A stretch of DNA of 62,342 bases, counting the filler, from Babesia bigemina (lineage: Eukaryota), in assembly GCF_000981445.1 (NCBI RefSeq). It is 14 parts of 14 records of this genome, joined end to end, with 100 filler letters (N's around TTAATTAATTAA, not from the genome) between each part and the next. Parts side by side here need not be neighbours in the genome. Positions count along the whole stretch, not along the records: positions 16,351 to 18,881 come from NW_012236937.1; 13 more parts are not named here. The stretch is one strand, 5' to 3'. Each line of letters begins with the position of its first letter. The first letter of the stretch is position 1. The notes under the pieces were generated by a model, which searched no databases, was not told where the DNA came from, and saw only the letters and a list, made by a program, of their open reading frames with translations. Shown in pieces: positions 10,647 through 60,300 of the stretch. The translations under genes were made by a program, and so were the position numbers.

Positions 10647-11738
10647 ATGGAGACACATATATGTACCACAGCCACACTACTTATCATGGTACATGTTGTG
10701 CTTATGCGATACACTTCGCAGGGGCACATGGCGCGGCGTCCGCTTTTCGTTTTATCCGCGTGGTGTGAATCTCAGAGAGCCAATGCAAGCGAAATCCCAT
10801 TTCGTTCGTCGGAGCGTGTTACTCATTGCGACGTCTGCCATAGAGGGCGTTTGTTGCGAATTGTTGCTGTCAAAGTCGATCCGCTGGAGGGCATGCCGGG
10901 ACTCGGCCTGGACGCTGGTTACGAGTCTGGCTACGAATCCGACAATGCGGACGCGGAGGAAGTCACTGAAGCTGACGTTGCAGACCTAATGAAGCTAATA
11001 CACGACGCGAAGCAGGGGAAACTTGGACCCATGTGGAAAAAGGAGATGATGGCTGCGGAGGAACTCTACTTACGCCGTCGTGCAGCGCTACGGGACCTTG
11101 GCGGAACAGCGGATTCAGATGAGAAACCCAACGTCTCGGAGCTCTTAAAAGAGCAAAATGATGTGCTCGATGAGCACCTAAACGCTATGTTCGACCTCTC
11201 CGAGCTGCGTCACCCTACCGAGGAGGAGGTCAGGCGCAACCTGGGTGAGATGCGGCCGGAGGATGAGGGATGGACACAAGATGACGCGGGACTCCAATCG
11301 ACGCAAGAAAGCCGCGACGCGCAATATATGAGAAGCCTCACGCAAGGCAAGCTTCGTCGGGAGGACCTTAGCAACCTAATCAGCGGATTCTACCGCCAGA
11401 AGGGCATTCTGAACGAGCCTGTAGTAGTCACCGCGCTACCCCCCTTTGAGGTTAGCTGGCGCCAACACAGCCGTTATTTCGACCTCTGGTTCCCGTGCAT
11501 ATCGCCCGAGGACAGAGAGGACGACTATGCCGTGACATTCATGCCGCGGGAGCTGACCATCACGTACAACGGCAAGGCTGTGTCTCGACCCTTGCGCGGC
11601 AAGGTCGACGTCGATGGCTGCTTTTGGTCAATACACGACATGGAGGGACGCGGGAACGTGGTCAGCGTCGTACTTCTCAAAAGCGCTCCCCGCTACTCCG
11701 GAACGTGGGAACACCTCTTCCGCGGCACACGTCCCTAA
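10647..11738 (+). CDS. CS-domain (p23/NudC-like) protein with N-terminal signal/transit-like leader, possibly apicoplast-targeted
   Basis: 363-aa ATG ORF with a hydrophobic N-terminus and a basic segment after it. The C-terminus (WRQ...LRGKVDVDGCFWSI...VVLLK...WEHLF) fits the CS-domain pattern. Confidence 0.7.
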   Translation: METHICTTATLLIMVHVVLMRYTSQGHMARRPLFVLSAWCESQRANASEIPFRSSERVTHCDVCHRGRLLRIVAVKVDPLEGMPGLGLDAGYESGYESDNADAEEVTEADVADLMKLIHDAKQGKLGPMWKKEMMAAEELYLRRRAALRDLGGTADSDEKPNVSELLKEQNDVLDEHLNAMFDLSELRHPTEEEVRRNLGEMRPEDEGWTQDDAGLQSTQESRDAQYMRSLTQGKLRREDLSNLISGFYRQKGILNEPVVVTALPPFEVSWRQHSRYFDLWFPCISPEDREDDYAVTFMPRELTITYNGKAVSRPLRGKVDVDGCFWSIHDMEGRGNVVSVVLLKSAPRYSGTWEHLFRGTRP

Positions 11739-12095: not shown

Positions 12096-12957
<862 letters not shown>

Positions 12958-13000
12958 TCAATACTGACCATTTAAATCATACCTGACCTCCATAGCAGAA

Positions 13001-13032
13001 AGTCAAAAGCCTCCGACCGGAGGCTTTTGACT
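13001..13032. terminator. tonB bidirectional terminator (vector); second copy at 14114-14145
   Basis: Perfect hairpin AGTCAAAAGCCTCCG-AC-CGGAGGCTTTTGACT. Confidence 0.9.
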
Positions 13033-13135
13033 TGATCGGCACGTAAGAGGTTCCAACTTTCACCATAATGAAATAAGATCACTACCGGGCGTATTTTTTG
13101 AGTTATCGAGATTTTCAGGAGCTAAGGAAGCTAAA

Positions 13136-13915
13136 ATGAGTATTCAACATTTCCGTGTCGCCCTTATTCCCTTTTTTGCGGCATTTTGCCTTCCTGTTTT
13201 TGCTCACCCAGAAACGCTGGTGAAAGTAAAAGATGCTGAAGATCAGTTGGGTGCACGAGTGGGTTACATCGAACTGGATCTCAACAGCGGTAAGATCCTT
13301 GAGAGTTTACGCCCCGAAGAACGTTTTCCAATGATGAGCACTTTTAAAGTTCTGCTATGTGGCGCGGTATTATCCCGTATTGACGCCGGGCAAGAGCAAC
13401 TCGGTCGCCGCATACACTATTCTCAGAATGACTTGGTTGAGTACTCACCAGTCACAGAAAAGCATCTCACGGATGGCATGACAGTAAGAGAATTATGCAG
13501 TGCTGCCATAACCATGAGTGATAACACTGCGGCCAACTTACTTCTGGCAACGATCGGAGGACCGAAGGAGCTAACCGCTTTTTTGCCACAACATGGGGGA
13601 TCATGTAACTCGCCCTTGATCGTTGGGAAACCCGGAGCTGATGAAGCCATACCAAACGACAAGCGTGACACCACGATGCCTGTAGCAATGGCAACAACGT
13701 TGCGCAAACTATTAACTGGCGAACTACTTACTCTAGCTTCCCGGCAACAATTAATAGACTGGATGGAGGCGGATAAAGTTGCAGGATCACTTCTGCGCTC
13801 GGCCCTCCCGGCTGGCAGGGTTATTGCTGATAAATCTGGAACCGGGAGCGGGGGTTCCCCCGTATCTTTCAGCCCTGGGGCCCGATTGAAAGCCCTCCCG
13901 CATCGAATTATTTAA
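13136..13915 (+). CDS. bla: TEM beta-lactamase (vector), with read errors in the 3' half
   Basis: [30 protein letters not shown]...MMSTFK. Confidence 0.95.
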
Positions 13916-14143
13916 CGACGGGAAGTCGCCAATCTGGGTAAACGAAATANNNNNNNNNNNNNNNNNNNNNNNNNNNNNNNNNNNNNNNNNNNNTTAATTA
14001 ATTAANNNNNNNNNNNNNNNNNNNNNNNNNNNNNNNNNNNNNNNNNNNNAACGAATTCTCTAGATATCGCTCAATACTGACCATTTAAATCATACCTGAC
14101 CTCCATAGCAGAAAGTCAAAAGCCTCCGACCGGAGGCTTTTGA

Positions 14144-15110
<967 letters not shown>

Positions 15111-15302
15111 GTGACCAAACAGGAAAAAACCGCCCTTAACATGGCCCGCTTTATCAGAAGCCAGACATTAACGCTTCTGGAGAAACTCAACGAGCTGGAC
15201 GCGGATGAACAGGCAGACATCTGTGAATCGCTTCACGACCACGCTGATGAGCTTTACCGCAGCTGCCTCGCGCGTTTCGGTGATGACGGTGAAAACCTCT
15301 GA
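15111..15302 (+). CDS. rop: ColE1 Rop copy-number regulator (vector)
   Basis: MTKQEKTALNMARFIRSQTLTLLEKLNELDADEQADICESLHDHADELYRSCLARFGDDGENL. Confidence 0.98.
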   Translation: MTKQEKTALNMARFIRSQTLTLLEKLNELDADEQADICESLHDHADELYRSCLARFGDDGENL

Positions 15303-15325
15303 TGAGGGCCCAAATGTAATCACCT

Positions 15326-15353
15326 GGCTCACCTTCGGGTGGGCCTTTCTGCG
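15326..15353 (+). terminator. T7Te terminator (vector)
   Basis: GGCTCACCTTCGGGTGGGCCTTTCTGCG. Confidence 0.9.
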
Positions 15354-15364
15354 TTGCTGGCGTT

Positions 15365-15952
15365 TTTCCATAGGCTCCGCCCCCCTGACGAGCATCACAA
15401 AAATCGATGCTCAAGTCAGAGGTGGCGAAACCCGACAGGACTATAAAGATACCAGGCGTTTCCCCCTGGAAGCTCCCTCGTGCGCTCTCCTGTTCCGACC
15501 CTGCCGCTTACCGGATACCTGTCCGCCTTTCTCCCTTCGGGAAGCGTGGCGCTTTCTCATAGCTCACGCTGTAGGTATCTCAGTTCGGTGTAGGTCGTTC
15601 GCTCCAAGCTGGGCTGTGTGCACGAACCCCCCGTTCAGCCCGACCGCTGCGCCTTATCCGGTAACTATCGTCTTGAGTCCAACCCGGTAAGACACGACTT
15701 ATCGCCACTGGCAGCAGCCACTGGTAACAGGATTAGCAGAGCGAGGTATGTAGGCGGTGCTACAGAGTTCTTGAAGTGGTGGCCTAACTACGGCTACACT
15801 AGAAGAACAGTATTTGGTATCTGCGCTCTGCTGAAGCCAGTTACCTCGGAAAAAGAGTTGGTAGCTCTTGATCCGGCAAACAAACCACCGCTGGTAGCGG
15901 TGGTTTTTTTGTTTGCAAGCAGCAGATTACGCGCAGAAAAAAAGGATCTCAA
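15365..15952 (-). other. ColE1/pMB1 replication origin (vector)
   Basis: TTTCCATAGGCTCCGCCCCCCTGACGAGC...AAAAAAGGATCTCAA. Confidence 0.97.
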
Positions 15953-15973
15953 GAAGATCCTTTGATTTTCTAC

Positions 15974-16003
15974 CGAAGAAAGGCCCACCCGTGAAGGTGA
16001 GCC
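15974..16003 (-). terminator. T3Te terminator (vector)
   Basis: Reverse complement is GGCTCACCTTCACGGGTGGGCCTTTCTTCG. Confidence 0.85.
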
Positions 16004-16474
16004 AGTGAGTTGATTTCAGTCCAGTTACGCTGGAGTCTGAGGCTCGTCCTGAATGATATCAAGCTTGAATTCGTTGCGCCGAGTGGCTGGTTAGGTATGA
16101 TTCAAATGGTCAGTCTTGCGCGATATCCCGAGCATTCTCCCGCAAATCCCACGAGTTCGCGAGTGACTACACCTCGTCAGAGCAGTGATGACGGTTAGAT
16201 GCGGCTCAGCGCCCTTGCTGGCAACTGCGGACGAATGCTTGGATCTCTGANNNNNNNNNNNNNNNNNNNNNNNNNNNNNNNNNNNNNNNNNNNNTTAATT
16301 AATTAANNNNNNNNNNNNNNNNNNNNNNNNNNNNNNNNNNNNNNNNNNNNGTAACTACTCACTTAGAGAATCACCTACTCACCTAAAATACAAACGTAGT
16401 CTAATGTCTCGAATTACTCTAGCGGCAACCTGTGAACTAAATAGCACCTAATGAGGTGATGAGTGGACGACAGA

Positions 16475-16828: not shown

Positions 16829-17330
16829 GGATGAAACGTAATTTGGTAGGTGTTGTAGCACGTTGATTGCCTGGTGCGTTGAGTTGTGCGTTGACTGTGA
16901 GAGGTGTCCGCGTTGCCCATTGAGTCAGTGTCACGTGAGGCTGGGTGATTGGTTGCTGACGTAGGCGGTCGTGAGGGCCGCGGCGGGTGGCCTAAGTCGT
17001 GTGTTGCGAGTCGCTGGCAGGGTGGCGTAATCTGCGTTGGTCTCGTTAAGCAGCATTTATAGGCGTCAATGTAGCGATTGTTAATATCACATTTAGGCAC
17101 GTAGCCGACACGCTCCGCCAGTATGGCGCCGATACCGCGGCTCGTAGCACGGTGCTGCTGCACTGTGGGAGTTGAGCGCACGGGTCGCTGCAATTTTAAT
17201 GGCGGTGCGAATAATGAATAATTTATAGTGACAGTTGGTGCTAGTCACATGCGCCGCGTCAGGGCATCTGTGGTATCCCGGGCAGCTTGGGTGTCGGTGG
17301 CCTGGGCTGGTGGCATACAGGGGTGAGGGT
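16826..17330 (+). promoter_or_regulatory. Conserved ~500-bp GC-rich element, copy 1 (putative promoter/5' exon or ncRNA)
   Basis: Four highly similar copies, each directly upstream of a small Cys-rich gene and in the same orientation. Function is inferred. Confidence 0.6.
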
Positions 17331-17339
17331 TATGTAAGT

Positions 17340-17793
17340 CATGTCGCAGTTGGTGAGTGCTTGCGTAGGTGATTGATATGCTTGCAGCTTGAGGGGAGTG
17401 GGCGTGGCAGTGGTAGTGTTGCAGTTGGTGAGTGCGTTGCTAGGTGATTGACATGTCTGCAGGTTGAGGGGACTGGGCGCGGCAGTGGTACGTGTTGCAG
17501 TTGGTGAGTGCGTTGCTTAGGTGATTGATATGTTCGCAGGTTGAGGGGAGTGGGAGCGGCAGTGGTAGTGTTGCAGTTGGTGAGTGCGTTGCTAGGTGAT
17601 TGATATACTTGCAGGTTGAGGGGAGTGGGAGCGGCAGTGGTACGTGTTGCAGTTGGTGAGTGCGTTGCTAGGTGATTGACATGCTTGCAGGTTGAGGGGA
17701 CTGGGAGCGGCAGTGGTAGTGTTGCAGTTGGTGAGTGCTGCTTAGGTGATTGATATGTTTGCAGGCTGAGGGGACTGGGAGGGAAGCGGGAAG
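17340..17793 (+). repeat. 75/76-bp tandem repeat with intron/micro-exon-like structure (~6 units)
   Basis: Unit is GTGAGTGCGTTGCTAGGTGATTGATATGCTTGCAG (35 nt) plus GTTGAGGGGACTGGGAGCGGCAGTGGTA(C)GTGTTGCAGTTG (40-41 nt). Confidence 0.9.
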
Positions 17794-18255
17794 ATGGGCT
17801 ATACTCCATTGTGTAAGTGTACAAAACGATGTACAGAGCATGAGTGTCTTTGTTGTCATTTGTGTTGTGCAGGATGTAGGAGTCCAAGTTGTCTTCGATG
17901 TCTCAATCTGTCTACTCGGCTAAGGAGTGGATTCTGGGACTGCAAACCTCAGAGATGTAATGAATGTGACACCAAATTGTGTCCATGTGACTGTTGTGAG
18001 AAAAAAAAATTGGAAGAACGTCGACAGCTTCGCTCTTCTTCCTCCCTCGCAGTCCAATCGCCTAGTGTCTCCTCTTCTACCACCGTACAGCGTTCCACCG
18101 GTGAACCCAGTGCTGTTCATACCACCGCTCCATCCAATTCCTCCCCCGTCCCTTACATCATCGCCGCCGTCGCCCTCCTCATCGTCGTCGTCTGCGTCAT
18201 GGTCTACTTCCGCATCCGGCCGTTCCACAGGGTGCGGTATCTACTGCGCAGCTGA
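17794..18255 (+). CDS. Small 18-Cys hypervariable single-TM protein, copy 1 (153 aa, tail YFRIRPFHRVRYLLRS)
   Basis: ATG in the conserved GGGAAG-ATG context. Cys scaffold, Ser-rich linker, TM and tail are shared with three paralogues in the window. Confidence 0.85.
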   Translation: MGYTPLCKCTKRCTEHECLCCHLCCAGCRSPSCLRCLNLSTRLRSGFWDCKPQRCNECDTKLCPCDCCEKKKLEERRQLRSSSSLAVQSPSVSSSTTVQRSTGEPSAVHTTAPSNSSPVPYIIAAVALLIVVVCVMVYFRIRPFHRVRYLLRS

Positions 18256-18343
18256 TCACAATAACCTAACTGGCAACTGACATCTAATGTGCTAGACAGA
18301 GTAATGGTTGTACTGATGCTAAATAAAATTAGCAGTGAGGTGA

Positions 18344-18475
18344 CCACTCCCTCCCTACTCCGTCATCGTCGCCATCATCCTGCTCGACCTGTGCATCTTC
18401 CGCTTCCCGGTGGGCCGCAACATCCGCGATTTCCTCGTACGCAAGATTCCCTTCTGCATCGCGTTCTACAGCTGA
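18344..18475 (+). pseudogene. Orphan TM-tail cassette (PYSVIVAIILLDLCIFRFPVGRNIRDFLVRKIPFCIAFYS*)
   Basis: Same tail as gene 50502-51074. It has no ATG and is preceded by an in-frame TGA within GAGGTGAC. Confidence 0.85.
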
Positions 18476-18602
18476 ACTATGCAATTTAGTAGCGCATAAA
18501 TCGTTCGTCCATATTCCACTGCTCACCTAACTGGCAACTGACATCTAATGTTCTAGACAGTAATGATTGCGTTGATGGCCAATTACATGAGCAGTGAGGT
18601 GA

Positions 18603-18761
18603 CTACTTCACTCTCCCTACTCGGCCATCGCCGCCGTCATCGTTGGCATCATCGTCGCCATCATCCTGCTCGACCTGTGCATCTTCCGCTTTCCGGTGGG
18701 CCGCAACATCCGCGATTTCCTCGTACGCAAGATACCCTTCTGCATCGCGTTCTACAGCTAA
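18603..18761 (+). pseudogene. Orphan TM-tail cassette (PYSAIAAVIVGIIVAIILLDLCIFRFPVGRNIRDFLVRKIPFCIAFYS*)
   Basis: Second tandem copy, with the same flanks as 18344-18475. Confidence 0.85.
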
Positions 18762-18981
18762 ACTCAGCAATATGTTGGCGCTAACATTCTTAATCGAAAT
18801 CCCACAGATCACCTGACTGGCGACTGACATCTAATGTTCTAGACAGAGTAGCAATTGCGTTGATGATCAATGACATGAGCANNNNNNNNNNNNNNNNNNN
18901 NNNNNNNNNNNNNNNNNNNNNNNNNTTAATTAATTAANNNNNNNNNNNNNNNNNNNNNNNNNNNNNNNNNNNNNNNNNNNN

Positions 18982-32700: not shown

Positions 32701-33070
32701 AGCGATGTGGAGTGGGCTAAGGGGCGATGTAGAGTGGATAAGGGAGCGATGTAGAGTGGATAAAGGGGCGATGTAGAGTGGGTTAGGGAGCGATGTAGAG
32801 TGGATTAAGGGGCGATGTAGAGTGGATTAAGGAGCGATGTAAGGTGGGTTAGGGAGCGATGTAGAGTGGGTAAAGGAGCGATGTAGAGTGGGTAAAGGGG
32901 CGATGTAGAGTGGATAAAGGGGCGATGTAGAGTGGGTTAAGGAGCGATGTAGAGTGCATTAGGGAGCGATGTAGAGTGGGTTAAGGGGCGATGTAGAGTG
33001 CATTAGGGAGCGATGTAGAGTGGGTTAAGGGTCGATGTGGAGTGGGTAAAGGGGCGATGTGGAGTGGGTA
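29795..33070. repeat. 23-bp G-rich arrays (29795-30141 and 30242-33070, separated by a linker)
   Basis: Direct inspection; more than 100 units. Confidence 0.98.
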
Positions 33071-33092
33071 ATAATCACCACTTTGGTCACCA

Positions 33093-33272
33093 CTGTCGCC
33101 GCTGCCGTGACCATGTCATCTCTGCCGTGACCATGTCATCGCTGCCGTGACCATGTCATCGCTGCCGTGTCCATGTCATCGCTGCCGTAACCATGTCATC
33201 GCTGCCGTAACCATGTCATCGCTGCCGTGACCATGTCATCGCTGCCGTGACCATGTCATCGCTGCCGTGACC
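33093..33272. repeat. 20-bp tandem repeat
   Basis: CCATGTCATCGCTGCCGTGA units. Confidence 0.95.
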
Positions 33273-33370
33273 ACTAAATTGGTCACCTCACTGCTTATGT
33301 GATTGGCCATCAACGCACTCATTACTCTGTCTAGCACATTAGATGTCAGTTGCCAGTCAGGTTATTGTAA

Positions 33371-33814
33371 TTAGCTGCGCAGTAGATACCGCACCCTGTG
33401 GAACGGCCGGATGCGGAAGTATATCATGGCGCAGATGACGACGATGACGAGGGCGATAGGTGCGATGATGTAAGGCGCGGGGGAACCGGTGGTAGGCGGT
33501 TGAATGACGGCTTGATGCTCAGCTGTGCGGGAAGAAGAGGAACCGGAGTCAAGGGCGGCACTGGGAGTTAAAGAGAGACGGGAAGGGTAGAGGACTATGC
33601 GTTTCTCGACACAACAGTTACATAGACAGTCGCTGTAACACTCTTTACATCTCGAATGATCGCACTGCTCCTGTCCATTCTTGCGCAAATAGGAGAAGTG
33701 GATACATTGAAGACACCGTGCTATACATCCTTTACAACACCAAGAACAGCAATTACACACTACCTCTTCTTTGCATTGCTTATTACACTTGTAACACCGC
33801 TCCCCTTTCCCCAT
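33371..33814 (-). CDS. Small 18-Cys hypervariable single-TM protein, copy 2 (147 aa)
   Basis: Same scaffold, start context and YFRIRPFHRVRYLLRS tail. Confidence 0.85.
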   Translation of the reverse strand: MGKGERCYKCNKQCKEEVVCNCCSWCCKGCIARCLQCIHFSYLRKNGQEQCDHSRCKECYSDCLCNCCVEKRIVLYPSRLSLTPSAALDSGSSSSRTAEHQAVIQPPTTGSPAPYIIAPIALVIVVICAMIYFRIRPFHRVRYLLRS

Positions 33815-33924
33815 CTTCCCGCTCCCCTCCCAGTCCCCTCAGCCTGCGAACATATCAATCACCTATCAACGCACTCACCAACTGCAACACGTACCACTGC
33901 CGCTCCCAGTCCCCTCACCAACGC

Positions 33925-34412
33925 ACTCACCGCTGTATCCCCCCAGCCCGGGCCACCGACACCCGCACTGCCCGGGATACCACAGCTGCCCTGACGCGAC
34001 GCATGTCATCAGCACCAACTGTCACTTTAAATTATTCACTATTCGCAACGCCATAAAAATTGCAGCGAGCCACGTGCGCTCAACTCCCACAGTGCAGCAG
34101 CACCGTGCTACGAGCCGCGGTATCGGCGCCATACTGGCGGAGTGTGTCGGCTACGTGCCTAAATGTTATATTAACGATCGCTACATTGCCGCCTATAAAT
34201 GCTACTTAACTAGGCCAACGCGGATTACGCCACCCTGCCAGCGACTCGCAACACACGGCTTACGTCACCCGCCGCGGCCCTCACGGCCGCCTACGTTAGC
34301 GACCAATCACCCAGCCTCACGTGACACTCACTCAATGGGTAACGCGTACACCTCTCACAGTCAACGCACAACTCAACGCCACAACACCTACCAAATTACG
34401 GTTCATCCGCCA
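33925..34412 (-). promoter_or_regulatory. Conserved ~500-bp element, copy 2 (followed by only ~1.5 units of the 75-bp repeat, 33820-33925)
   Basis: High similarity to 16826-17330. Confidence 0.6.
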
Positions 34413-34840
34413 GCTTAGCACTTTGCCTGAGTGCTAGGTTAGCACTTTGCCTGGGTGCCAGCTTACCACTTTGCCTGGGTGCTAGGTCACCACTTTGCCT
34501 GAGTGCTAGCTTAGCACTTTGGTCATGGCATTGGTCAACACGTTGCCTGGTTGCCAGCTTAGCACTTTGCCTGGATGCTAGCTTAGCACTTAGCCTGGGT
34601 GCTAGGTCAACACTTAGCCTGGGTGCCAGCTTAGCACTTAGCCTGGTTGCTAGGTTAACACTTCGCCTGTGTGCCAGCTTAGCACGTTGCCTGGTTGCTA
34701 GGTTACTACTTTGCCTGGTTGCCAGCTTAGCACTTTCCCCGGTTGCCAGCTTATCACTTAGCTTGCGTGCTACCTTATCACTTTGCCTGGGTGCTAGGTT
34801 AGCACTTTACCTGCGTGCTAGGTCAACACGTTGCTTGGTC
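34412..34840 (-). repeat. 24-bp tandem repeat
   Basis: Direct inspection. Confidence 0.95.
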
Positions 34841-34979
34841 GTTTAGTCATCACCTAATCTAGGTGTTATTTAGTTCACAGGTTGCCGCTAGAGTAATTCG
34901 ACACATTAGACTACGTTTGTCGGTTAGGTGAGTAGGTGAGATGTTACGTGAGTTGTGTGAATGACAAATGTGACGATGA

Positions 34980-37900
34980 TTACGGTTGTAGATACGATAT
35001 TTTGGCAAGCCTTCCGACTTGCGCTGCCGCCAACAGCGATTGCGCCGTTATCCTGTGCGATGATGGTGATCGTAAGTGCGATTTGATGTGCAGCACATCC
35101 AGTCTGCCAACCATCACGCAGATGAGGTAGAAGAGGGAGAGTGACCAGAGCGCTAGGGTCATCCACAGGAATGGTGCGCGGATGGTGAACATGAAATTAT
35201 CAATGGCTTTGAAGAACTGCACAAGATGTGAGTCTTTCTCAAATGCCTCCTTAAATACATTACAGAAATCTCTGCACGTGCGTTTCGTATGCGATTGTCC
35301 ATCCCTGTTCAGCCTCTCTGGATCGCCGAGAACAAAGCCGTATTTTGCCAATGTCGGCAGCGTTGAATTGCACTTTACAATGGATTTGCATTTGGGATCG
35401 TGATATCGTGGCGGTTGATACGTCGTTGATGTAGTTGGACACTCCTTGACGCACGCTTTTTGATGACAATTCGATCCCCTGGCACCGCATTTGGAGTTGC
35501 ACTCATCGTACAACTTTTTAAGCAGATCGTAGAACGATGCCGTCAGATAGACAATCCACGACAAATACTTATCGGCGTGTTTTGCTGAGAACGTCTCGTA
35601 GATGGCGTGACCGATGGGCCGCAGATAAGGACCGCATACGACGGCGTCCCGTGATAAGCATACGAGACTGGCCAGGCTACCAGCGGCATGCCCCTTCCAC
35701 GCTGCTGAGTGACTAGCGGAAAATAAGTGGTAGACGTTCAAATCATTATACTGACGCCCGAAATTGGCTGCGTTAACTTTCTCATTAAATGCCCGTTGTT
35801 TATGCGCTTGACCATACATACCCCAGCGATCGGTGAGGTGATAGTAGAAGCTGAACATGTCCGCCAGCGTTTTCGGCGCACTAGGCAGAAGGCAGTTGAG
35901 GTAACTGCACAGTCTAGTGAGCGGCGAATTTGGACGGCCACAGAAATACACAAGCACATCGCATATATCCCGGCCAATCATCGTATGCGACGCGATGGCG
36001 CTGATGTCGGCGAAGCCCATTGGAGTTCGGCACGGCATACCAGGTGAATTACCACAAGTGCCACATGACAGACTGGATCCCCTAGCCGTAACCGAATGCG
36101 GCAGGTGGCCTTTCAGACCGTCCTCCAAGAACGATTGCAGTGGCGACTTGACGCCGCAGCTGGGATATTGCTCACCCGTTTGGTTGCCACTTTGGTCATG
36201 CCTTTGGTCACAGTCTTGCTTAGGGCATTGCTTCGTGTTGCACTGCCAGCCCGACCCACCGATGTACCTGCCGTAGTGGCAGTCCCTCCAGCCGCTGAGC
36301 TGTGCGTTGTACTTACACTGCTGCAGCAGGAAGTACAGCTGGTGGTAGAGGCGCTTAAGCAGGTCGAACAACGTGCACAACAGTTGAATCATGTTGGTAG
36401 GGTAATCTAATTTCAGCGAGTTGTCGGAGAAATCACACGCGTAGATTCCGTCCTTGTGACCGTGGCCTAGGATAGCGGTGAGGACGGCGTGGGAGTTGGC
36501 AGACACTTTGTAGAGCGCTTCGTCGATATGCGTGTGTTCAAAGTCAGACGGGTGCGTATCGAAGGGCTGCAGTATCTTCTCACCCGGACGTTGCTTGTCC
36601 TCCTTCATGAACTCGGACTCAATGTGCTTCTTCAGCTTGCCGTACACGGGGTTGAACTGCAGGCCGTTGCACCAGACAAGAATTTCGTAAACGGAGCATG
36701 GAGCCCTGGGTTTGTCAACACGAGTAAGGTGGCATACAGCGAAGTACGTCTGCAGGAAATCATAGAGTTTTCGGATGAGACCACTCTCCTCCGCGATGGT
36801 TACATCAAGCTCGTCCGACCCGGATGTGGATGAAGGAATGCCGGTGACGGGAGATGACAGATGACTGAACAAATTATGCGTCTCGTTGGTAAGGTGTTCG
36901 AGAATGCTGCTACCATTAAAATCAGTTTTGTGATTCAGCTCGCCATGCTCAGCGTTCTCAGGACGATGGACGTCATACCCGTTGTCGCGGAAGAAGAGAG
37001 CGCGGAGGCTGGAGGTGCCGTCAGCTGGGTGATATATTTTGTGGCCATCCCAACCGCTGTATTCGAGTCTATTCTTGAGTTCAGTTAGAGCGTCGTATAA
37101 GATGGGCGTGATGGTCCAACAGATTTTGGCGTAGTTTCTTCTTTCCGCCTCGGTGAGTTTCTCCCATTCGATGGTCCTCAAAGAATACGTTGAAACGTAG
37201 GCTTTTTTGAGCTCCTCGACGAGAGGGGTGAAGCCTGCTTTTAGAGCATTGAGGAGTGAGGGGCACTTGGCTGCGCCGTAGGTAGAGGGCTTGAAGGCGG
37301 TAACAGATTCATTAAGGTTACTCAGGTTCTTGGTGAAGACATGATCGAAGTGCAGTGATTGTGCTAGGACAGTGAGTAAGTTTGTCACTGCGTTGTACGA
37401 AGGCTTGATTTTGGAGGAGTCAGACTCGACATCAGTTTGATTCTGCAGATTAAGGAGGAATGATTTAAAGGCGCCGTGTGATATCGATGCCGCCTCTCTT
37501 AATGGTGACGTTACAGCTGTGAAGGTGTTGGGATTGACATCTTCAATCTGCTCTACCCTCGCAATAAACTTCCCCGCCAGCCTGTTCATGAACCCCTTGT
37601 AACCGATGTCCAGATCGTCGGTGATTTCCTTAGGTAGAGGCTCCAACTCCTTCTCGGCTTTCTCCGCGAACTCTAGCAGAATGGCCTTCACCGAAGTGAC
37701 GTAGTTCTTGTTGACCTGGGTGATCAGAGTGTTCTGAGCTTCGTCGACGTTGGAGCTTACTACTTTGCCAATCGATGCGATTGTCGCCTGGGCTGTTGGA
37801 CCGGCGCTGGTGAGGAAGTTTTCAGCCTCTTTGATGGCCGCGCTTAAATCAATCAATCGCAGGTCGTTGAGTTTGTTTTTGACGTATTCAAGTTGCCCCT

Positions 37901-40349
37901 TTATGGTCTCCGTTTTAATTGTGTCCAGGTTCCACTTCGCGTTGGAGGCTTCGTCTTTAAGGATCTTACATAGCTCACTGAGCGTGGACTTGACGCTTTC
38001 TATATCCTCATTAGCATATCTATTGTAATCGTCAATTGACGTTAGAGCGTTTTTTACATCATCTCGTATTTTTTTAATTGCCTCTGGCAGGGTGCCTGCT
38101 AACTTATTTGGATCTCGATCCGCGACTGCCAAACTTTCTGGCCTTTGGTCAACTTGCAACTTATATTTTCCAAAAATCGTTATATCCGTATCTTGAAGGT
38201 TAACTTTATCTGCACCAAGATATCCCGGAAACTGCTGCTCAAGCGTATTTGTTACTCCTCTGATTGCAGTGTCGACGTCAGCCGCAAGGTTATTCGTTTT
38301 TCCAGATGAACCAACAGGTTGCCCAAGCGCTGCTTTTAGCTTATCGAATAACAGATTCACTTTACTGTGAGCGTCATCGATTTTGGCTGCGATACTGTTC
38401 TTTGAGCCGTTTGGCCTTTGCTTGAGAGCAAAGGAGTGCAACTCTTTTGCGGCTTGCTTGGCTCTGGAAGACATCGCTGATAGCGTTATCAAAATGGCGA
38501 GGTGGAGATTCGTGTTGTCGTACGGCGGAAATGATTGCGGCTTGGATTTATTCACTAAGACAGCCTCAATGGATTGAACGGTATTGTTGAAAAGCGAATT
38601 AAGGTTTCTATCAAGTTCGCTGGCAAATTGCATTATACGTGAGTGTATATTTTGGAGATTCTCGTGAACGTTCTCCGCTGAAGGCAGGTTGACACTTGTA
38701 GCCGTGTTGATTGTATCATCTAGATGCGCAGTAAGTTTTTCTTTAACGGTTGTATTTATACCATCAATCCCATGTTTGTGGAGATTGGTGTCATTGAATT
38801 TATCTCTGTTTTCCCGCACATATTGCAATATATAGCTTTTGTATGTGTGATCCTCTTTCAATATATCGGATACCCACTCACCGACCGTATCCCTAAATCC
38901 ATTGCCGTACTGGTAAACATATCCGCTTACTCCTCTTTCAATACCATTCAGACCTGCGCCATCCCTTCCGCCTCCCTTGATTGCCCCAACTTTATTTCGA
39001 AGTTCTGTTATGATATCTTCAACACTTTTATGCTGTTCGCCTGCTACTCGGCCGGCACTAGAATCTTTAGGGAAATTATTCCCAAGCTCCTTAATATTTG
39101 TATCAACCTTATCGACTGCTTCCTTAATGGCCTTCTTCACCTTAAACAAATCCGCTTTCAGCTCACCGTCCATCGTTATGACAGCTCTAAGCGCTGCCGT
39201 GACTTCCGTTTGAACTTTTCGTTTAGCATCATCTCCTGCGCTGTGGAGCACTAATACTGCAGCTTTCAACTGCTCCACGACGCTATGCATTCTATACGTC
39301 TTCGTGCTGGAATCCTTCTCATTCGATTCCGCCAATACTTTATTCACCTTTTCCAGCGCCACATTCACATAGCTCTCCGCCTTCTTCATACACGCTTCTA
39401 GCTGCTTAACGTATTTTTCCAGATCTGTGCTTATCTCCCTCAGCTTCTTCAAAATTTTCTGCACCCTCAATTTCAAATCATTAACTAATTTATCTATATC
39501 GTCACCCACCTGCTTGTTTATGCAGCTCTTCAAATTGCGGAAACTTGTCTTAATCTTCTCCGTCGTCTCCTTCAACTCAGCGTCTTTCCGCTTGTGCACG
39601 CTGGCCAGCCGCTGGCTCTCGTACTCAACAAGCTTACGAACATGCAACACTTTGTCACGCAACTTATCATTAAGGTCATAAATGTTTTTTTTCATCTTAG
39701 TGTTGTTATTTGCCTTGGGGTCCAGGAATTCCGCGCACCTCTTGCTCCTATCTGTGGCCTCCTTCAGCCGGTCGCCGCAGGACCTTACGGCGTCGGCCAG
39801 CTGTGGATCCAGATCATGTTTGTCAACCTGAATCTTATTAATGCTAGTAATCAACTCACCTCCATTTTTCTTGGTGTAGTCGAGCAGTTTTTTAAGCGGC
39901 TCAATCACTGCTTCATTAGAAGACTTTACATTACCATTATACCCCCGCACCCCTGCGACCACCTTTTCAATCGCAACACTAAAACCTTTTTTGCCAAGGT
40001 GTTTATTGGCCTCAAGTGACTTAATAGCTTCTGTAATTTGCTCTTTATGCTGCCCTAAATGGCCATGGATGTTACTAAGCACACCACTCAAAAATCCCAT
40101 CACCCCGTCACACAGCCTGTCCAAGTCAGAGTACACAATCCCCTGGCCGTCGTAGCCTTTGGAGGCAGAGTCGAAGCCGAGGAAGGTTTCGAGGCCAGAG
40201 CAGAGGTTAGTAAGGATGTTAGTAGGGTTGTTATTTGAGGTGATTTTAAGGTTCAAAATTTCATCAAATTTCTTGTCAAGCTCCCTAGGCGGTACATGGT
40301 CAGGGCAGTGGCAGAGGTGGAAGGAGGGAAGTGAAGGGTGACCAGGCAC
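34980..40349 (-). CDS. ves1: Long VESA1-family gene (1789 codons, tail type B); first in-frame ATG at 40100
   Basis: Same domain order and conserved blocks as 24037-29562. Confidence 0.9.
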   Translation of the reverse strand: MPGHPSLPSFHLCHCPDHVPPRELDKKFDEILNLKITSNNNPTNILTNLCSGLETFLGFDSASKGYDGQGIVYSDLDRLCDGVMGFLSGVLSNIHGHLGQHKEQITEAIKSLEANKHLGKKGFSVAIEKVVAGVRGYNGNVKSSNEAVIEPLKKLLDYTKKNGGELITSINKIQVDKHDLDPQLADAVRSCGDRLKEATDRSKRCAEFLDPKANNNTKMKKNIYDLNDKLRDKVLHVRKLVEYESQRLASVHKRKDAELKETTEKIKTSFRNLKSCINKQVGDDIDKLVNDLKLRVQKILKKLREISTDLEKYVKQLEACMKKAESYVNVALEKVNKVLAESNEKDSSTKTYRMHSVVEQLKAAVLVLHSAGDDAKRKVQTEVTAALRAVITMDGELKADLFKVKKAIKEAVDKVDTNIKELGNNFPKDSSAGRVAGEQHKSVEDIITELRNKVGAIKGGGRDGAGLNGIERGVSGYVYQYGNGFRDTVGEWVSDILKEDHTYKSYILQYVRENRDKFNDTNLHKHGIDGINTTVKEKLTAHLDDTINTATSVNLPSAENVHENLQNIHSRIMQFASELDRNLNSLFNNTVQSIEAVLVNKSKPQSFPPYDNTNLHLAILITLSAMSSRAKQAAKELHSFALKQRPNGSKNSIAAKIDDAHSKVNLLFDKLKAALGQPVGSSGKTNNLAADVDTAIRGVTNTLEQQFPGYLGADKVNLQDTDITIFGKYKLQVDQRPESLAVADRDPNKLAGTLPEAIKKIRDDVKNALTSIDDYNRYANEDIESVKSTLSELCKILKDEASNAKWNLDTIKTETIKGQLEYVKNKLNDLRLIDLSAAIKEAENFLTSAGPTAQATIASIGKVVSSNVDEAQNTLITQVNKNYVTSVKAILLEFAEKAEKELEPLPKEITDDLDIGYKGFMNRLAGKFIARVEQIEDVNPNTFTAVTSPLREAASISHGAFKSFLLNLQNQTDVESDSSKIKPSYNAVTNLLTVLAQSLHFDHVFTKNLSNLNESVTAFKPSTYGAAKCPSLLNALKAGFTPLVEELKKAYVSTYSLRTIEWEKLTEAERRNYAKICWTITPILYDALTELKNRLEYSGWDGHKIYHPADGTSSLRALFFRDNGYDVHRPENAEHGELNHKTDFNGSSILEHLTNETHNLFSHLSSPVTGIPSSTSGSDELDVTIAEESGLIRKLYDFLQTYFAVCHLTRVDKPRAPCSVYEILVWCNGLQFNPVYGKLKKHIESEFMKEDKQRPGEKILQPFDTHPSDFEHTHIDEALYKVSANSHAVLTAILGHGHKDGIYACDFSDNSLKLDYPTNMIQLLCTLFDLLKRLYHQLYFLLQQCKYNAQLSGWRDCHYGRYIGGSGWQCNTKQCPKQDCDQRHDQSGNQTGEQYPSCGVKSPLQSFLEDGLKGHLPHSVTARGSSLSCGTCGNSPGMPCRTPMGFADISAIASHTMIGRDICDVLVYFCGRPNSPLTRLCSYLNCLLPSAPKTLADMFSFYYHLTDRWGMYGQAHKQRAFNEKVNAANFGRQYNDLNVYHLFSASHSAAWKGHAAGSLASLVCLSRDAVVCGPYLRPIGHAIYETFSAKHADKYLSWIVYLTASFYDLLKKLYDECNSKCGARGSNCHQKACVKECPTTSTTYQPPRYHDPKCKSIVKCNSTLPTLAKYGFVLGDPERLNRDGQSHTKRTCRDFCNVFKEAFEKDSHLVQFFKAIDNFMFTIRAPFLWMTLALWSLSLFYLICVMVGRLDVLHIKSHLRSPSSHRITAQSLLAAAQVGRLAKISYLQP

Positions 40350-40404
40350 AAGTTATTATAATGGTGTAAGAAGGTCATAGCGGTATTATGGCAAGGTAAT
40401 TCGA

Positions 40405-42286: not shown

Positions 42287-42317
42287 AATAATTACCACTT
42301 AGGTCAGGTGCTTGGTC

Positions 42318-43108: not shown

Positions 43109-43225
43109 ACTACTACACAATCACATACAACGATTAGTGAGTGATACAATAGATTAGACAACAATTCATAAGTTAGGTGAGTAGGTGATGCTAAGTGAGT
43201 GTAGAAGGTAAACACGTGAGTACGA

Positions 43226-48871: not shown

Positions 48872-48931
48872 GGCACAAGTTATTATTGTGGTTTAAAGAG
48901 GTCATAGCGGTAATATGGCGAGGTAATTGGA

Positions 48932-50155
48932 GGGATGTAGAGTGGGTAAAGGGGCGATGTAGAGTAAGTTAGGGAGCGATGTAGAGTGGGTAAAGGAGCG
49001 ATGTAGAGTGGGTTAAGGGGCGATGTGGAGTGGATAAAGGGGCGATGTGGAGTGGGTTAGGGAGCGATGTAGAGTGGGTTAGAGAGCGATGTAGAGTGGA
49101 TAAAGGGGCGATGTAGAGTGGATAAGCGGCGATGTAGAGTGGATAAAGGGGCGATGTAGAGTGCGTTAAGGGGCGATGTGGAGTGGGTAAAGGAGCGATG
49201 TAGAGTGGGTAAAGGGGCGATGTAGAGTGGATAAAGGGGCGATGTAGAGTGGGTAGAGGAGCGATGTAGAGTGGGTTAAGGAGCGATGTGGAGTGGGTAA
49301 GGGGCGATGTAGAGTGGGTAAAGGAGCGATGTAGAGTGGGTTAAGGAGCGATGTGGAGTGGGTAAGGGGCGATGTAGAGTGGGTTAGGGAGCGATGTGGA
49401 GTGGATTAAGGGGCGATGTAGAGTGGATTAGGGAGCGATGTAGAGTGGGTTAAGGGGCGATGTGGAGCGGGTTAAGGAGCGATGCAGAGTGGGTTAAGGG
49501 GCGATGTAGAGTGGATAAAGGGGCGATGTGGAGTGGGTTAAGGGGCGATGTAGAGTGTATAAGGAGCGATGTAGAGTGGATAATAATCACCACTTAGGTC
49601 ATGTCATCGCTGCCGTGACCATGTCGTCGCTGCCGTGACCATGTCGTCGCTGCCGTGACCATGTCATCGCTGCCGTGACCGTGTCATCGCTGCCGTGTCC
49701 ATGTCATCGCTGCCGTGACCATGTCATCGCTGCCGTGACCATGTCATCGCTGCCGTAACCATGTCATCGCTGCCGTGTCCATGACATCACTGCCGTGTCC
49801 ATGTCATCGCTGCCGTGACCATGTCATCGCTGCCGTGACCATCAACTTGTTTAGCACTTTGGTCATGTCATTGGTCAGCACTTTGGTCATGGCATTGGTC
49901 AGCACATTGGTCGTGGCTTTGGTCATCACTTTGGTCAACACGTTGGTCAGCACCTTGGTCAGCACCTTGGTCGTGGCATTGGTCAGCACCTTGGTCAGGT
50001 GCTTGGTCACCACTTTGATCATGGCATTGGTCAACACTTTGGTCATGGCATTGGTCATGGCATTGGTCACCACCTTGGTCAACACATTGATCAGCACTTT
50101 GGTCATGGCATTGGTCAGCACCTTGGTCAGCACATTGGTCATGACATTGGTCAGG
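48932..50155. repeat. Composite array: 23-bp (48932-49582), 20-bp (49600-49842), 12-bp (49848-50155)
   Basis: Direct inspection. Confidence 0.95.
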
Positions 50156-50249
50156 TGGTAGGTCACCTCACTGCTGATGTGATTAGTCATAAACGCACGC
50201 ATTATATTGTCTAGACATTAGATGTCAGTTGGCAGTTAAGTTATTCTGC

Positions 50250-50375
50250 TTAGCTGCGCAGTAGATACCGCACCCTGTGGAACGGCCGGATGCGGAAGTA
50301 GATCATGGCGCAGATGACGAGGATGATGACGGCGACGGCGGCGATGATGTAAGGGAAGGACGTTGGGGGAAGATG
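50250..50375 (-). pseudogene. Orphan TM-tail cassette (PYIIAAVAVIILVICAMIYFRIRPFHRVRYLLRS*)
   Basis: Matches the tail of copies 1, 2 and 4, lies downstream of copy 3, and starts after the TGA in GAGGTGAC. Confidence 0.85.
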
Positions 50376-50501
50376 TCACCTCACTGCTCATGTGCTTGAT
50401 CATAAACGCGCTCATTACTGTCTATAACATTAGATGTTAGTTGGCAGTTAGGAGATCAGTGGGATTTGGATTACGATGTTTGCGCTAACAAATTGCTGCG
50501 A

Positions 50502-51074
50502 TCAGCTGTAAAACGCGATGCAGAAGGGTATCTTGCGTACGAGGAAATCGCGGATGTTGCGGCCCACCGGGAAGCGGAAGATGCACAGGTCGAGCAGGAT
50601 GATGGCGACAATGATGGCAACGATGACGGCGGCGATGGCTTGGGGGTCAGGGGAAAAAGGTGTGGAGTCTTCTTCAGTAGGGTCTTCGATGGAATCTTCA
50701 TTACCGCTGGTACGACGTAGTGCACTGTTCTCGGACAGATCACCGGAGGAATCAGGGGGAGGCGGTGGAGGTGGAGGCTGTGGAACGGGGGCACTGCACT
50801 CGTCAGGCCGCTCTCTACATTTCCGTTGACAACAGTCACATTTACATTGTAACTCGTTGCCTGCACATTTGGTTATACAATCGAAGGTTTTGCAATTGTA
50901 ACTTGGATCCTTGTTATTTTGCCGCTTCCAGGTATATGCAAAACACTCATAACAACGGGATAAACTATCCGTATTACATTCTTTGCAACACCAGGGACAG
51001 CAGTTACAAACCTGCATATATTTACACTTTTTGTTACACCTAGTGCATGGTTTCCCTGGCCAATAATGAGTCAT
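50502..51074 (-). CDS. Small Cys-rich single-TM protein, copy 3 (190 aa, 18+2 Cys, alternative tail FRFPVGRNIRDFLVRKIPFCIAFYS)
   Basis: Same scaffold and GGGAAG-ATG context; Pro-rich linker. Confidence 0.85.
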   Translation of the reverse strand: MTHYWPGKPCTRCNKKCKYMQVCNCCPWCCKECNTDSLSRCYECFAYTWKRQNNKDPSYNCKTFDCITKCAGNELQCKCDCCQRKCRERPDECSAPVPQPPPPPPPPDSSGDLSENSALRRTSGNEDSIEDPTEEDSTPFSPDPQAIAAVIVAIIVAIILLDLCIFRFPVGRNIRDFLVRKIPFCIAFYS

Positions 51075-51079
51075 CTTCC

Positions 51080-58574: not shown

Positions 58575-59030
58575 ATGTCGAAGTGTAAGTGTGATAATAC
58601 ATGTCAGCCGCGTGAGTGTAGATGCTGCCAGTACTGTTGTAAGAGATGTGGTTTATGTGAAGAATGTCGTGATATATACTTTGAGCGCAAAGGTACAGGC
58701 GAATGCCATCGTTTGAAATGTCTTGGTTGTTTAACCAACTGTGTTTGTTTATGTTGCAGAAGTGATCGCTTTACTGTTACCTATACTCGTTATTACAGCA
58801 GTCCAGAGCGTGCCGGCTCTACCTCCCGTGTTGCCGCTGTCCCCGGTTCCGCCTCTCGCCCCGATTCTCAGCACCGGGTCTCCGCTCAACAGTCCTCCAC
58901 CGCTTCCACCCCCAACGTCCTCCCGTACATCATCGCCGCCGTCGCCGTCATCATCATCGTCGTCGTCTGCGTCATGATCTACTTCCGCATCCGGCCGTTC
59001 CACAGGGTGCGGTATCTACTGCGCAGCTGA
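58575..59030 (+). CDS. Small 18-Cys hypervariable single-TM protein, copy 4 (151 aa)
   Basis: Same scaffold, start context and YFRIRPFHRVRYLLRS tail. Confidence 0.85.
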   Translation: MSKCKCDNTCQPRECRCCQYCCKRCGLCEECRDIYFERKGTGECHRLKCLGCLTNCVCLCCRSDRFTVTYTRYYSSPERAGSTSRVAAVPGSASRPDSQHRVSAQQSSTASTPNVLPYIIAAVAVIIIVVVCVMIYFRIRPFHRVRYLLRS

Positions 59031-59119
59031 TCAGAATAACCTAACTGGCAACAGACATCTAATGTTGTAGACAGTGATGATCGCGTTGATGGCCAATCAG
59101 AAGAGCAGTGAGGTGACCT

Positions 59120-60300
59120 AGCACCTGACCTAGGTGGTGACTAACGTGCTGACCAAAGTGGTGACCAATGCCATGACCAGAGTGCTGACCTATGTGCTGA
59201 CCAAAGTGGTGACCTATGTGCTGACCAAAGTGGTGACCTACCACCTGACCAAGTTAATGGTCACGGCAGCGATGACATTGTTATGGTCACGGCAGCGATG
59301 ACATGGACACGGCAGCGGTGACATGGTTACGGCAGCGATGACATGGTCACGGCAGCGATGACATGGGCACAGCAGCGATGACATGGGCACAGCAGCGATG
59401 ACATGGTTACGGCAGCGATGACATGGTACGGCAGCCATAACTTGGTTACGGCAGCGATGACATGGTAACGGCAGCGATGACATGGTCACGGCAGCGATGA
59501 CATGGTCACGGCAGCGATGACATGGTCACGGCAGCGATGACTGGTCACGGCAGCGATGACAGTGGTGACCAAGCACCTGACCTAAGTGGTGATTATTATC
59601 CACTCTACATCGCCCCTTTATCCACTCTACATCGCCCCTTTATCCACTCTACATCGCTCCCTAACCCACTCCACATCGCTCCCTAATCCACTCCACATCG
59701 CCCCTTTACCCACTCTACATCGCCCCTTAACCCACTCTACATCGCTCCCTAATCCACTCTACATCGCCCCTTTATCCACTCTACATCGCCCCTTTATCCA
59801 CTCTACATCGCTCCCTAACCCACTCTACATCGCTCCTTAATCCACTCTACATCGCTCCTTAATCCACTCTACATCGCTCCCTAACCCACTCTACATCGCC
59901 CCTTTACCCACTCTACATCGCTCCTTAACCCACTCCACATCGCCCGAATAACCTTGCATATTAACGCTATGACCTCTATAAACCATAGCAATAACTTGTG
60001 CTTTGTCCNNNNNNNNNNNNNNNNNNNNNNNNNNNNNNNNNNNNNNNNNNNNTTAATTAATTAANNNNNNNNNNNNNNNNNNNNNNNNNNNNNNNNNNNN
60101 NNNNNNNNACCCACTCTACATCGCTCCCTAATCCACTCTACATCGCCCCCTAATCCACTCTACATCGCCCCTTTATCCACTCTACATCGCCCCTTTATCC
60201 ACTCTACATCGCCCCTTTATCCACTCTACATCGCCCCTTACCCACTCTACATCGCTCCCTAACCCACTCTACATCGCTCCCTAATCCACTCTACATCCCT
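59120..60300. repeat. Composite array: 12-bp (59120-59255), 20-bp (59258-59562), 23-bp (59598-59946, and 60109-60300 after the linker)
   Basis: Direct inspection; mirror image of the minus-strand modules. Confidence 0.95.

What the first reader, a model, noticed from the sequence alone, without database searches (positions are those of the whole stretch)
18256..18881. Orphan TM-tail cassettes of the opposite type sit downstream of the small genes
Seen: copy 1 (tail RVRYLLRS) is followed by two intact FCIAFYS-type cassettes, and copy 3 (tail FCIAFYS) by an intact RVRYLLRS-type cassette (50250-50375). Every gene and cassette is followed by the same ~90-bp flank (YTAACTGSCAACTGACATCTAATG...GCAGTGAGGTGAC). 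The next module, whether cassette or repeat, starts right after GAGGTGAC (18344, 18603, ~33281, ~50161, 50375, ~59117). That motif puts a TGA in frame and no AG follows it, so simple alternative splicing does not fit. The upstream (M)SSEVT frame is one base off the TM frame in all three cassettes. Inference: donors or by-products of tail switching at a fixed junction, or +1 frameshift micro-peptides.
Basis: partly seen in the sequence, partly recalled or inferred. Interest (0 to 1): 0.75.

Follow-up and report, generated by a model that had tools for sequence, protein, structure and literature searches.

The report
Orphan membrane-anchor cassettes in Babesia bigemina
In the cattle parasite Babesia bigemina, genes of an unnamed family of small cysteine-rich membrane proteins are often trailed by headless copies of just the membrane anchor and tail, which are likely leftovers of gene-replacing recombination rather than a programmed tail switch.

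Summary
The cassettes are real. The window is joined contigs whose genes match only Babesia bigemina. Four genes of an unnamed, ves1-linked family (about 60 gene models; Cys-rich domain, stalk, one TM, RV or FC tail) carry three headless TM-tail cassettes. Cassettes recur at 10 other annotated loci and in three other DNA runs.

Corrections: one cassette lacks 8 TM codons. The 'fixed junction' is the first intact unit of a 12-bp minisatellite into which the flank decays; its letters vary. The one-base frame offset is not conserved (4 of 10 junctions in frame), and the SSEVT frame shows no coding constraint. An intron-like GT..AG lies upstream of the motif, but no window module splices to a second TM.

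Best reading (0.6): one old junction, spread by ectopic conversion that replaces a whole gene and strands the recipient's TM-tail. Stalk and tail type agree in 58 of 60 genes, and 0 of 33 FC genes have an RV stalk, so cassettes are rarely captured. Type exchange does occur, at variable points. Splicing, translation and switching over time are untested. I found no description of the family in print.

The parts
17794..18255 (+). Gene 1: 153-aa Cys-rich domain, stalk, TM, RV tail (FRIRPFHRVRYLLRS)
   Evidence: family hits all B. bigemina
18232..18295 (+). Intron-like segment GTGCGG..TAG (64 nt) spanning the RV stop; used by B. bigemina gene models at other loci; would give only TE* here; splicing untested
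18256..18344 (+). Shared flank; last 36 nt are eroded units in register with the 12-bp minisatellite
18345..18475 (+). Cassette c1a: FC TM-tail, no start codon in frame, 24-nt in-frame deletion in the TM
18476..18603 (+). FC-specific 41 nt plus shared flank
18604..18761 (+). Cassette c1b: full FC TM-tail, PPY-type start, SSEVT frame one base off
18626..18638 (+). 13-nt word CATCGCCGCCGTC shared by RV and FC types at the TM start (also in genes 1, 3 and cassette c3); likely crossover point between types
   Evidence: X1 record 2 crosses here
18762..18881 (+). FC-specific 3' part and flank, cut by the contig end
16826..17793 (+). Conserved upstream arm: about 500 nt unique block (89-92% among the four loci) and 75-bp repeat array up to the ATG
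50502..51074 (-). Gene 3: 190 aa, FC tail
50375..50501 (-). FC-specific 3' part plus shared flank
50250..50374 (-). Cassette c3: RV TM-tail
50162..50249 (-). Shared flank, running into the 12-bp array
49855..50161 (-). 12-bp minisatellite (TGAC every 12 nt, in register with the flank end)
33371..33814 (-). Gene 2: 147 aa, RV tail, no cassette
33282..33370 (-). Shared flank, then one 12-bp-like unit and the 20-bp array
58575..59030 (+). Gene 4: 151 aa, RV tail, no cassette
59031..59117 (+). Shared flank
59118..59252 (+). 12-bp minisatellite in register with the flank end
34980..40349 (-). ves1-like ORF upstream of gene 2 (same strand); a ves1-like 3' end also precedes genes 3 and 4
   Evidence: Atlas feature score 0.96-0.97 to VESA1 clusters

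Best explanation
The cassettes are headless TM-tail copies from a Babesia bigemina family of small Cys-rich membrane genes, likely stranded and spread by ectopic gene conversion, not by a programmed switch. Shown: each gene sits between a conserved upstream arm and a flank whose end is the eroded start of a 12-bp minisatellite; cassettes join at the first intact TGAC unit. Inferred: one old join fused that unit to the Ser/Thr/Pro tract before a TM. A locus carrying gene + flank + cassette then offers two homology arms (upstream arm 86-95%, cassette core about 97%) and can overwrite a locus of the cassette's type, replacing its ectodomain, stalk, TM and tail as a block and leaving the recipient's own TM-tail as the new cassette. 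This would keep the junction fixed, the cores gene-like, the 3' regions diverse and the neighbours mostly of opposite type. Unequal exchange in the flank would add cassettes; slippage in the C-rich tract would scramble the frame. Crossovers in the shared 13-nt word now and then swap tail types, as a side effect.
For: Junction: the last 36 nt of 6 of 6 complete flanks score best at offset 0 of 12 against a profile of 81 array units, shuffle p 0.0001-0.0022 (copies are related). Its letters vary in other runs (table 5c and 7). Common ancestry of starts: PPY-type start in 9 of 11 FC-start cassettes against 6 of 34 full FC genes, Fisher p 0.0002 (rows not independent). Gene-like cores, diverse 3' ends: FC core 0 non-synonymous and 3-4 synonymous differences per pair over 111 nt, next 45 nt only 62-82% alike; 2 residue changes in 9 annotated cassettes against 10 in 33 full genes. 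Homogenisation: 48 coding nt of the RV tail identical in 4 of 4 modules, synonymous sites included, while ectodomains are 44-45% identical. Block replacement: stalk type matches tail type in 58 of 60 models. Variable crossovers: before the TM (P0045), at IAAV (P0048; X1 record 2), mid-TM (P0061). Frame mixed: 4 of 10 in frame, p 0.74 against one third. No coding constraint on SSEVT. Arms. Known setting: conversion with 2-35 bp of homology in B. bovis (PMC7485966, passages); frequent ves transposition, 3'-end recombinants and a breakpoint before a Ser/Thr/Pro tract in B. bigemina (PMC4066756).
Against: No conversion event was observed; no genome was held, so cassettes could not be counted without bias or compared between strains at one locus. 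Cores without private damage fit purifying selection on the cassettes as well. 10 annotated loci are in frame, and no junction fell in the third frame (0 of 10), which free drift does not predict. The GTGCGG..TAG segment is kept in 4 of 4 RV modules. Cassette starts are of several subtypes (PPY, SPQ, PNVLP, PVPY), which several independent joins would also give. The ectodomain tree does not group by tail type (5 changes against 6.0 shuffled), though one RV clade is not rejected (p-AU 0.14).
Confidence: 0.6

Rival explanations
1. The flank holds an intron end and a second exon, or a start codon: in-frame cassettes make a two-TM isoform (intron removed from the RV tail) or a 60-70 residue anchor-only micro-protein; out-of-frame copies are decayed.
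For: GTGCGG..TAG of 63-64 nt with CTAAC/CTGAC in 4 of 4 RV modules. Five B. bigemina models splice RPFHR into a cassette (P0031, P0035, P0036, P0056, P0063) and five are stand-alone in-frame ORFs (P0058-P0061, P0064). Cores are intact.
Against: Those models are predictions, selected for being in frame, and many models of this family have implausible N-termini read from the 75-bp repeat. Splicing in the window gives TE*, TE*, TI* or a 16-residue end, never a second TM. 0 of 3 scorable RV-to-FC pairs give an open spliced frame (gene 1, X4 record 14, X5 record 16; X5 record 17 unscorable). A 0, 1 or 2 nt indel follows the acceptor. SSEVT frame pN/pS about 2; its openness is expected of a 12-bp repeat. 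Both tails are basic, so a two-TM hairpin would be topologically at odds (inference).
Confidence: 0.15
2. Cassettes are a kept reservoir of alternative tails: deletion or conversion between the gene's TM start and the cassette's swaps the tail on a given ectodomain and changes its sorting.
For: A 13-nt word is shared by gene and opposite-type cassette at both loci. P0048 and P0045 have the shape such a deletion would give at an FC-gene/RV-cassette locus. Ectodomains do not group by tail. B. bovis lacks Ku70/80 and may use microhomology joining (PMC7485966, passage).
Against: RV-to-FC is the commonest layout seen, yet 0 of 33 FC genes have an RV stalk. Crossover points vary. Conversion from any of about 60 genes gives the same chimeras with no cassette. 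Two of four window loci have no cassette. No same-ectodomain, different-tail pair was seen.
Confidence: 0.15
3. Each cassette comes from its own non-homologous join: copying of a donor gene stalls at the minisatellite and rejoins the recipient in the C-rich tract before the TM.
For: 5' breakpoints differ by up to about 25 nt and include several stalk-end subtypes of both types.
Against: PPY starts are strongly over-represented among cassettes; the letters after TGAC are alike across cassettes; direct joins at the TGAC inside FC 'PDP' codons were not seen among the junctions read.
Confidence: 0.06
4. A conserved +1 frameshift makes micro-peptides from the SSEVT frame into the TM frame.
For: One-base offset in 3 of 3 window cassettes and 3 of 7 from other runs.
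Against: 4 of 10 junctions and 10 annotated loci need no shift; the extra base lies at different places of a C-rich tract; no constraint on the peptide.
Confidence: 0.02
5. The cassettes are assembly artefacts of short unplaced contigs.
For: The window is 14 joined contigs, some of them cloning vector. Single-base errors could affect the frames.
Against: Flank-to-cassette joints occur in runs X1, X2, X4, X5 of four studies and in models on chromosome-sized records; the two FC cassettes differ by 38% in their 3' 45 nt.
Confidence: 0.02

Closest known systems
BbigVes1ba recombinants and ves transposition in B. bigemina (PMC4066756; section 22 part 1 and passages read)
   Same: Same organism and loci; 3' ends exchanged between two sub-types of a multigene family; a breakpoint next to a Ser/Thr/Pro tract; ectopic conversion invoked.
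   Different: Those are whole ves1 genes with swapped ends; no stranded TM-tail cassette is described in the parts read, and this family shows no ves similarity (Pfam blank for genes 1 and 4; gene 3 not scanned against Pfam).
Segmental gene conversion of B. bovis ves1 (PMC7485966, passages)
   Same: Short-homology conversion among paralogues gives mosaics and homogenised tracts.
   Different: There short patches enter the active locus; here a gene-sized block is inferred to be replaced and a remnant left in tandem.
B. bovis smORF and B. bigemina ves2 (PMC4066756, PMC5660447; named sections)
   Same: Small, multi-copy, species-restricted genes among ves1 loci.
   Different: ves2 and smORF are described as secreted, with ves2 lacking a TM; these proteins have a C-terminal TM, about 18-20 Cys and start directly in the Cys-rich domain.
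Silent partial cassettes of antigenic variation (Borrelia vls, Neisseria pilS, Anaplasma msp2, trypanosome VSG pseudogenes; recalled, no call)
   Same: Headless partial copies beside or near an expressed gene, with shared homology for conversion.
   Different: Those cassettes store the variable part; these store the constant anchor and tail, and capture looks rare.
Alternative membrane/tail exons such as immunoglobulin membrane exons (recalled, no call)
   Same: An alternative TM-tail lies downstream of the ectodomain.
   Different: No conserved in-frame acceptor; the upstream TM would not be skipped; no RNA joint seen.

Membership tests
ves1 / VESA1 | Conserved VESA C-terminal domain and large size | tested here: not met
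   Small genes are 147-190 aa with other tails; all named hits are hypothetical proteins. The neighbouring long ORFs do match VESA1 clusters.
ves2 / smORF | No C-terminal TM; predicted signal peptide | tested here: not met
   One hydrophobic helix near the C-terminus (helix 144-165, the only confident part); N-termini begin in the Cys-rich domain. No signal-peptide predictor was run.
Silent donor cassettes for programmed switching | Partial copy without its own start, sharing homology with an intact gene | tested here: met
   3 of 3 window cassettes; shared 13-nt word and cores.
Silent donor cassettes for programmed switching | Cassette sequence is regularly transferred into the gene | tested here: inconclusive
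   2 of 60 chimeric genes, 0 of 33 in the direction the commonest layout predicts; source of the tail unknown.
Silent donor cassettes for programmed switching | Cassettes hold the variable region | tested here: not met
   They hold the most conserved part.
Silent donor cassettes for programmed switching | Switching seen over time in clones | not testable with these tools
   No clonal series or whole genome held.
Site-specific recombination cassettes (integron- or shufflon-like) | Invariant crossover site with fixed crossover base | tested here: not met
   Motif letters vary, breakpoints vary, site is a minisatellite unit.
Alternative TM-tail exon | Conserved acceptor in frame with the TM | tested here: not met
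   0 of 4 RV window modules reach a second TM; 0 of 3 scorable RV-to-FC pairs open. Met in predicted models only.
Alternative TM-tail exon | Spliced joint in RNA | tested here: inconclusive
   The three RNA-guess runs held no RV tail, so the joint could not be tested.
Programmed +1 frameshift | Conserved offset and shift site | tested here: not met
   4 of 10 junctions in frame; extra base at different places.
Structured RNA element | Rfam match or stable fold of the flank | tested here: not met
   No Rfam match over the flanks; fold z-scores -1.0 to +0.8 in 6 of 6.

The most novel reading that the evidence does not exclude
B. bigemina has an undescribed variant membrane-protein family, tied to ves1 loci, whose constant anchor is itself switchable: downstream TM-tail cassettes are kept by selection and reached either by removing a 64-nt intron from the RV tail (two-TM isoform or anchor-only partner) or by microhomology deletion, with C-tract slippage turning each cassette's frame on or off. 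This would be variation of the anchor and sorting signal rather than of the exposed domain.
Probability: 0.15. Interest if true: 0.75.

Novelty: new variant of a known kind. Interest (0 to 1): 0.42.

Why it matters
Even on the neutral reading, the cassettes mark an unnamed family of about 60 B. bigemina-restricted Cys-rich membrane genes placed after ves1 genes, with hypervariable ectodomains and nearly invariant tails: a candidate second variant surface family that I did not find described. The cassettes record how whole genes are likely replaced at these loci, and they mislead gene prediction (10 models are built on them). If they are translated or captured under selection, anchor switching would be a new layer of variation in piroplasms.

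Tried and rejected
No whole genome is held, so no genome-wide census. Metagenome scan for the RV tail: 0 matches. Earlier scan notes: none. Sequencing runs: no RNA holder listed on record; three RNA-guess runs of one study held no RV tail and so could not test the intron. X3 held one FC piece and no junction. Four contigs that span a junction (X4 record 14, X5 record 16, X2 records 5 and 6) were left out of the SSEVT frame count because the place of their indels is not shown; the lay tables were cut (15 and 214 pieces not shown). Idea that the flank is an old stalk (P0018 NDFIDDLHEQ against a flank frame): best p 0.04 among 18 frames tried, rejected; the one lower p (0.005, P0051) lies in a mispredicted stretch. 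Ectodomain tree: 20 of 61 rows kept (13 or more Cys), 1 of 17 branches starred, weak. Flank as structured RNA: rejected. Fold: mean pLDDT 56.5, pTM 0.25, so no fold search was run. Atlas for gene 3: best 0.84, no lead. Profile search of 1.84 billion representatives: 41 hits, 40 of this family, one unnamed weak hit at E 2.6e-4 taken as compositional. In one search the substitutions at cassette c1a were classed in a wrong frame; one search has the corrected values. P0016 was dropped from counts as the same protein end as P0007. Literature: six locus tags gave 0 papers; searches listed no paper on this family; six tags were absent from six supplements of PMC9806345. Supplements of PMC4066756 and PMC5660447 were not read and could list the family as a cluster.

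Full report
Setting. The window is 14 contigs joined by N-TTAATTAATTAA-N linkers. Its long ORFs match VESA1 clusters, and every named relative of the small genes is a Babesia bigemina hypothetical protein, so the organism is taken to be B. bigemina. No whole genome was held. Four small genes (17794-18255 +, 33814-33371 -, 51074-50502 -, 58575-59030 +) encode 147-190 residue proteins: about 18-20 Cys, a low-complexity stalk, one TM and a basic tail, RV type in three and FC type in one. About 60 gene models belong to the family. A profile search of 1.84 billion representatives found 41 proteins, 40 of this family and one weak unnamed hit.

The observation. Corrections: cassette 18345-18475 lacks 8 TM codons; FC modules have about 41 extra nt before the flank; the last flank is cut by the contig end; the second cassette at gene 1 follows its own type. 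The cassettes are not artefacts: flank-to-cassette joints occur in runs X1, X2, X4 and X5, and 10 annotated models at other loci are built on cassettes.

What the junction is. TGAC recurs every 12 nt from the flank end into the minisatellite behind genes 3 and 4. The last 36 nt of all 6 complete flanks score best in that register, with shuffle p from 0.0001 to 0.0022 (the copies are related, so this is close to one observation). The flank end is therefore the eroded start of the array, and GAGGTGAC is its first intact unit. In other runs the letters before TGAC differ. A 12-bp repeat also explains why one frame (SSEVT) stays open; among six flanks that frame has 115 non-synonymous and 12 synonymous pairwise differences, pN/pS about 2.

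Frame. Of 10 junctions not chosen for their frame (3 window, 7 from runs), 4 are in frame (one with a stop just before its own ATG), 6 are one base off and none is two off; p 0.74 against one third. Four more spanning contigs could not be scored. The 10 annotated loci are all in frame, but a gene predictor selects for that. A conserved +1 frameshift is thus not supported. The empty third class is unexplained.

Splicing. An acceptor-like TAG lies before it and closes a 63-64 nt segment that starts GTGCGG inside the RV tail, in 4 of 4 RV modules. Five predicted models splice from RPFHR into an FC cassette. In the window the products would be TE*, TE*, TI* and a 16-residue end, and 0 of 3 scorable RV-to-FC pairs give an open frame. 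A 0, 1 or 2 nt indel follows the acceptor among copies. The RNA-guess runs held no RV tail, so splicing is untested.

Why the cores are intact. FC cores differ only at 3-4 synonymous sites per pair over 111 nt, while the next 45 nt are 62-82% alike. Annotated cassettes carry 2 residue changes in 9, full genes 10 in 33. The RV tail is identical over 48 coding nt in 4 of 4 modules, synonymous sites included, against 44-45% identity over the proteins. That points to homogenisation by conversion, which would keep cassettes gene-like without selection on them; selection is not excluded.

Are tails swapped? Stalk type agrees with tail type in 58 of 60 models; both exceptions (P0045, P0048) put an RV tail on an FC stalk, and 0 of 33 FC genes have an RV stalk, although RV gene + FC cassette is the layout seen most often (a layout favoured by my reference and by the gene models). 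Hybrid cassettes exist (P0061; X1 record 2). Crossovers fall before, at and inside the TM; the two types share a 13-nt word there. Ectodomains do not group by tail type (5 changes against 6.0 shuffled; p-AU 0.14 for one RV clade), which fits mosaic ectodomains but is weak. Exchange is real, rare and not site-specific.

Mechanism. PPY-type starts make up 9 of 11 FC-start cassettes but 6 of 34 full FC genes, so most cassettes likely inherit one junction. The region upstream of the ATG is 86-95% alike among the four loci. A gene + cassette locus thus has a left arm shared by all members and a right arm nearly identical to any gene of the cassette's type. Conversion between these arms would overwrite the recipient's gene and strand its TM-tail, with no new non-homologous join. 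This one inferred step accounts for the fixed junction, intact cores, diverse 3' ends, opposite-type neighbours and stalk-tail agreement. It rests on known Babesia biology: conversion needing 2-35 bp of homology and no Ku70/80 in B. bovis (PMC7485966, passages); frequent ves transposition, 16 ves1b/ves1a 3'-end recombinants and a breakpoint before a Ser/Thr/Pro tract in B. bigemina (PMC4066756, section 22 part 1 and passages). No event was observed directly.

Print. Six locus tags gave no paper. Searches listed no description of this family or its cassettes, and none appeared in what I read: PMC5660447 (abstract, section 28), PMC10463595 (passages), PMC9806345 (passages and six supplements searched for six tags), PMC9531838 (passages). 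Unread supplements of the genome papers may list the family as an unnamed cluster.

Verdict. A real, recurrent and apparently undescribed feature, most likely a recombination remnant (0.6), in an unnamed candidate variant membrane family. A translated or selected role for the cassettes stays open (splice or micro-protein 0.15, tail reservoir 0.15). Interest 0.42.

Noticed in passing
window 17342-17781, 51086-51752 (minus), 57951-58568: Units of the 75-bp repeat just before each small gene's ATG hold a 32-36 nt GTGAGT..TGCAG intron-like segment, a possible tandem array of 5' UTR mini-introns. The contig in the RNA-guess runs keeps such a segment unspliced.
   Followed up: partly
runs X14-X16 laid on window 17300-18881: Three RNA-guess runs of one study each hold the same single full FC-type gene (415 nt between ATG and TM) at contig depth 530-1250, with the flank ending at 18539 and no cassette. 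A lead for one-member expression; contigs drop rare variants and RNA is not shown.
   Followed up: no
P0042, P0065, P0053; X1 loose end at 18233: Further tail types exist (RVRDFCARKMNGLRRTH, KVRDCFERR) that look intermediate between RV and FC, so the two tails are likely homologous.
   Followed up: partly
window 30242-41750, 41851-53943, 56261-60008: Repeated same-strand order: ves1 3' end, 24-bp array, about 500 nt conserved block, 75-bp array, small gene, flank, 12-, 20- and 22-bp arrays, next ves1.
   Followed up: partly
window 12096-16250: Two contigs are cloning vector (beta-lactamase, plasmid origin); the beta-lactamase frame at 14249-15110 is split over two ORFs, which suggests single-base errors in these unplaced contigs.
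   Followed up: no
window 10647-11738: 363-aa ORF with a weak CS (p23-like) domain match below the Pfam cut-off; unrelated contig.
   Followed up: no
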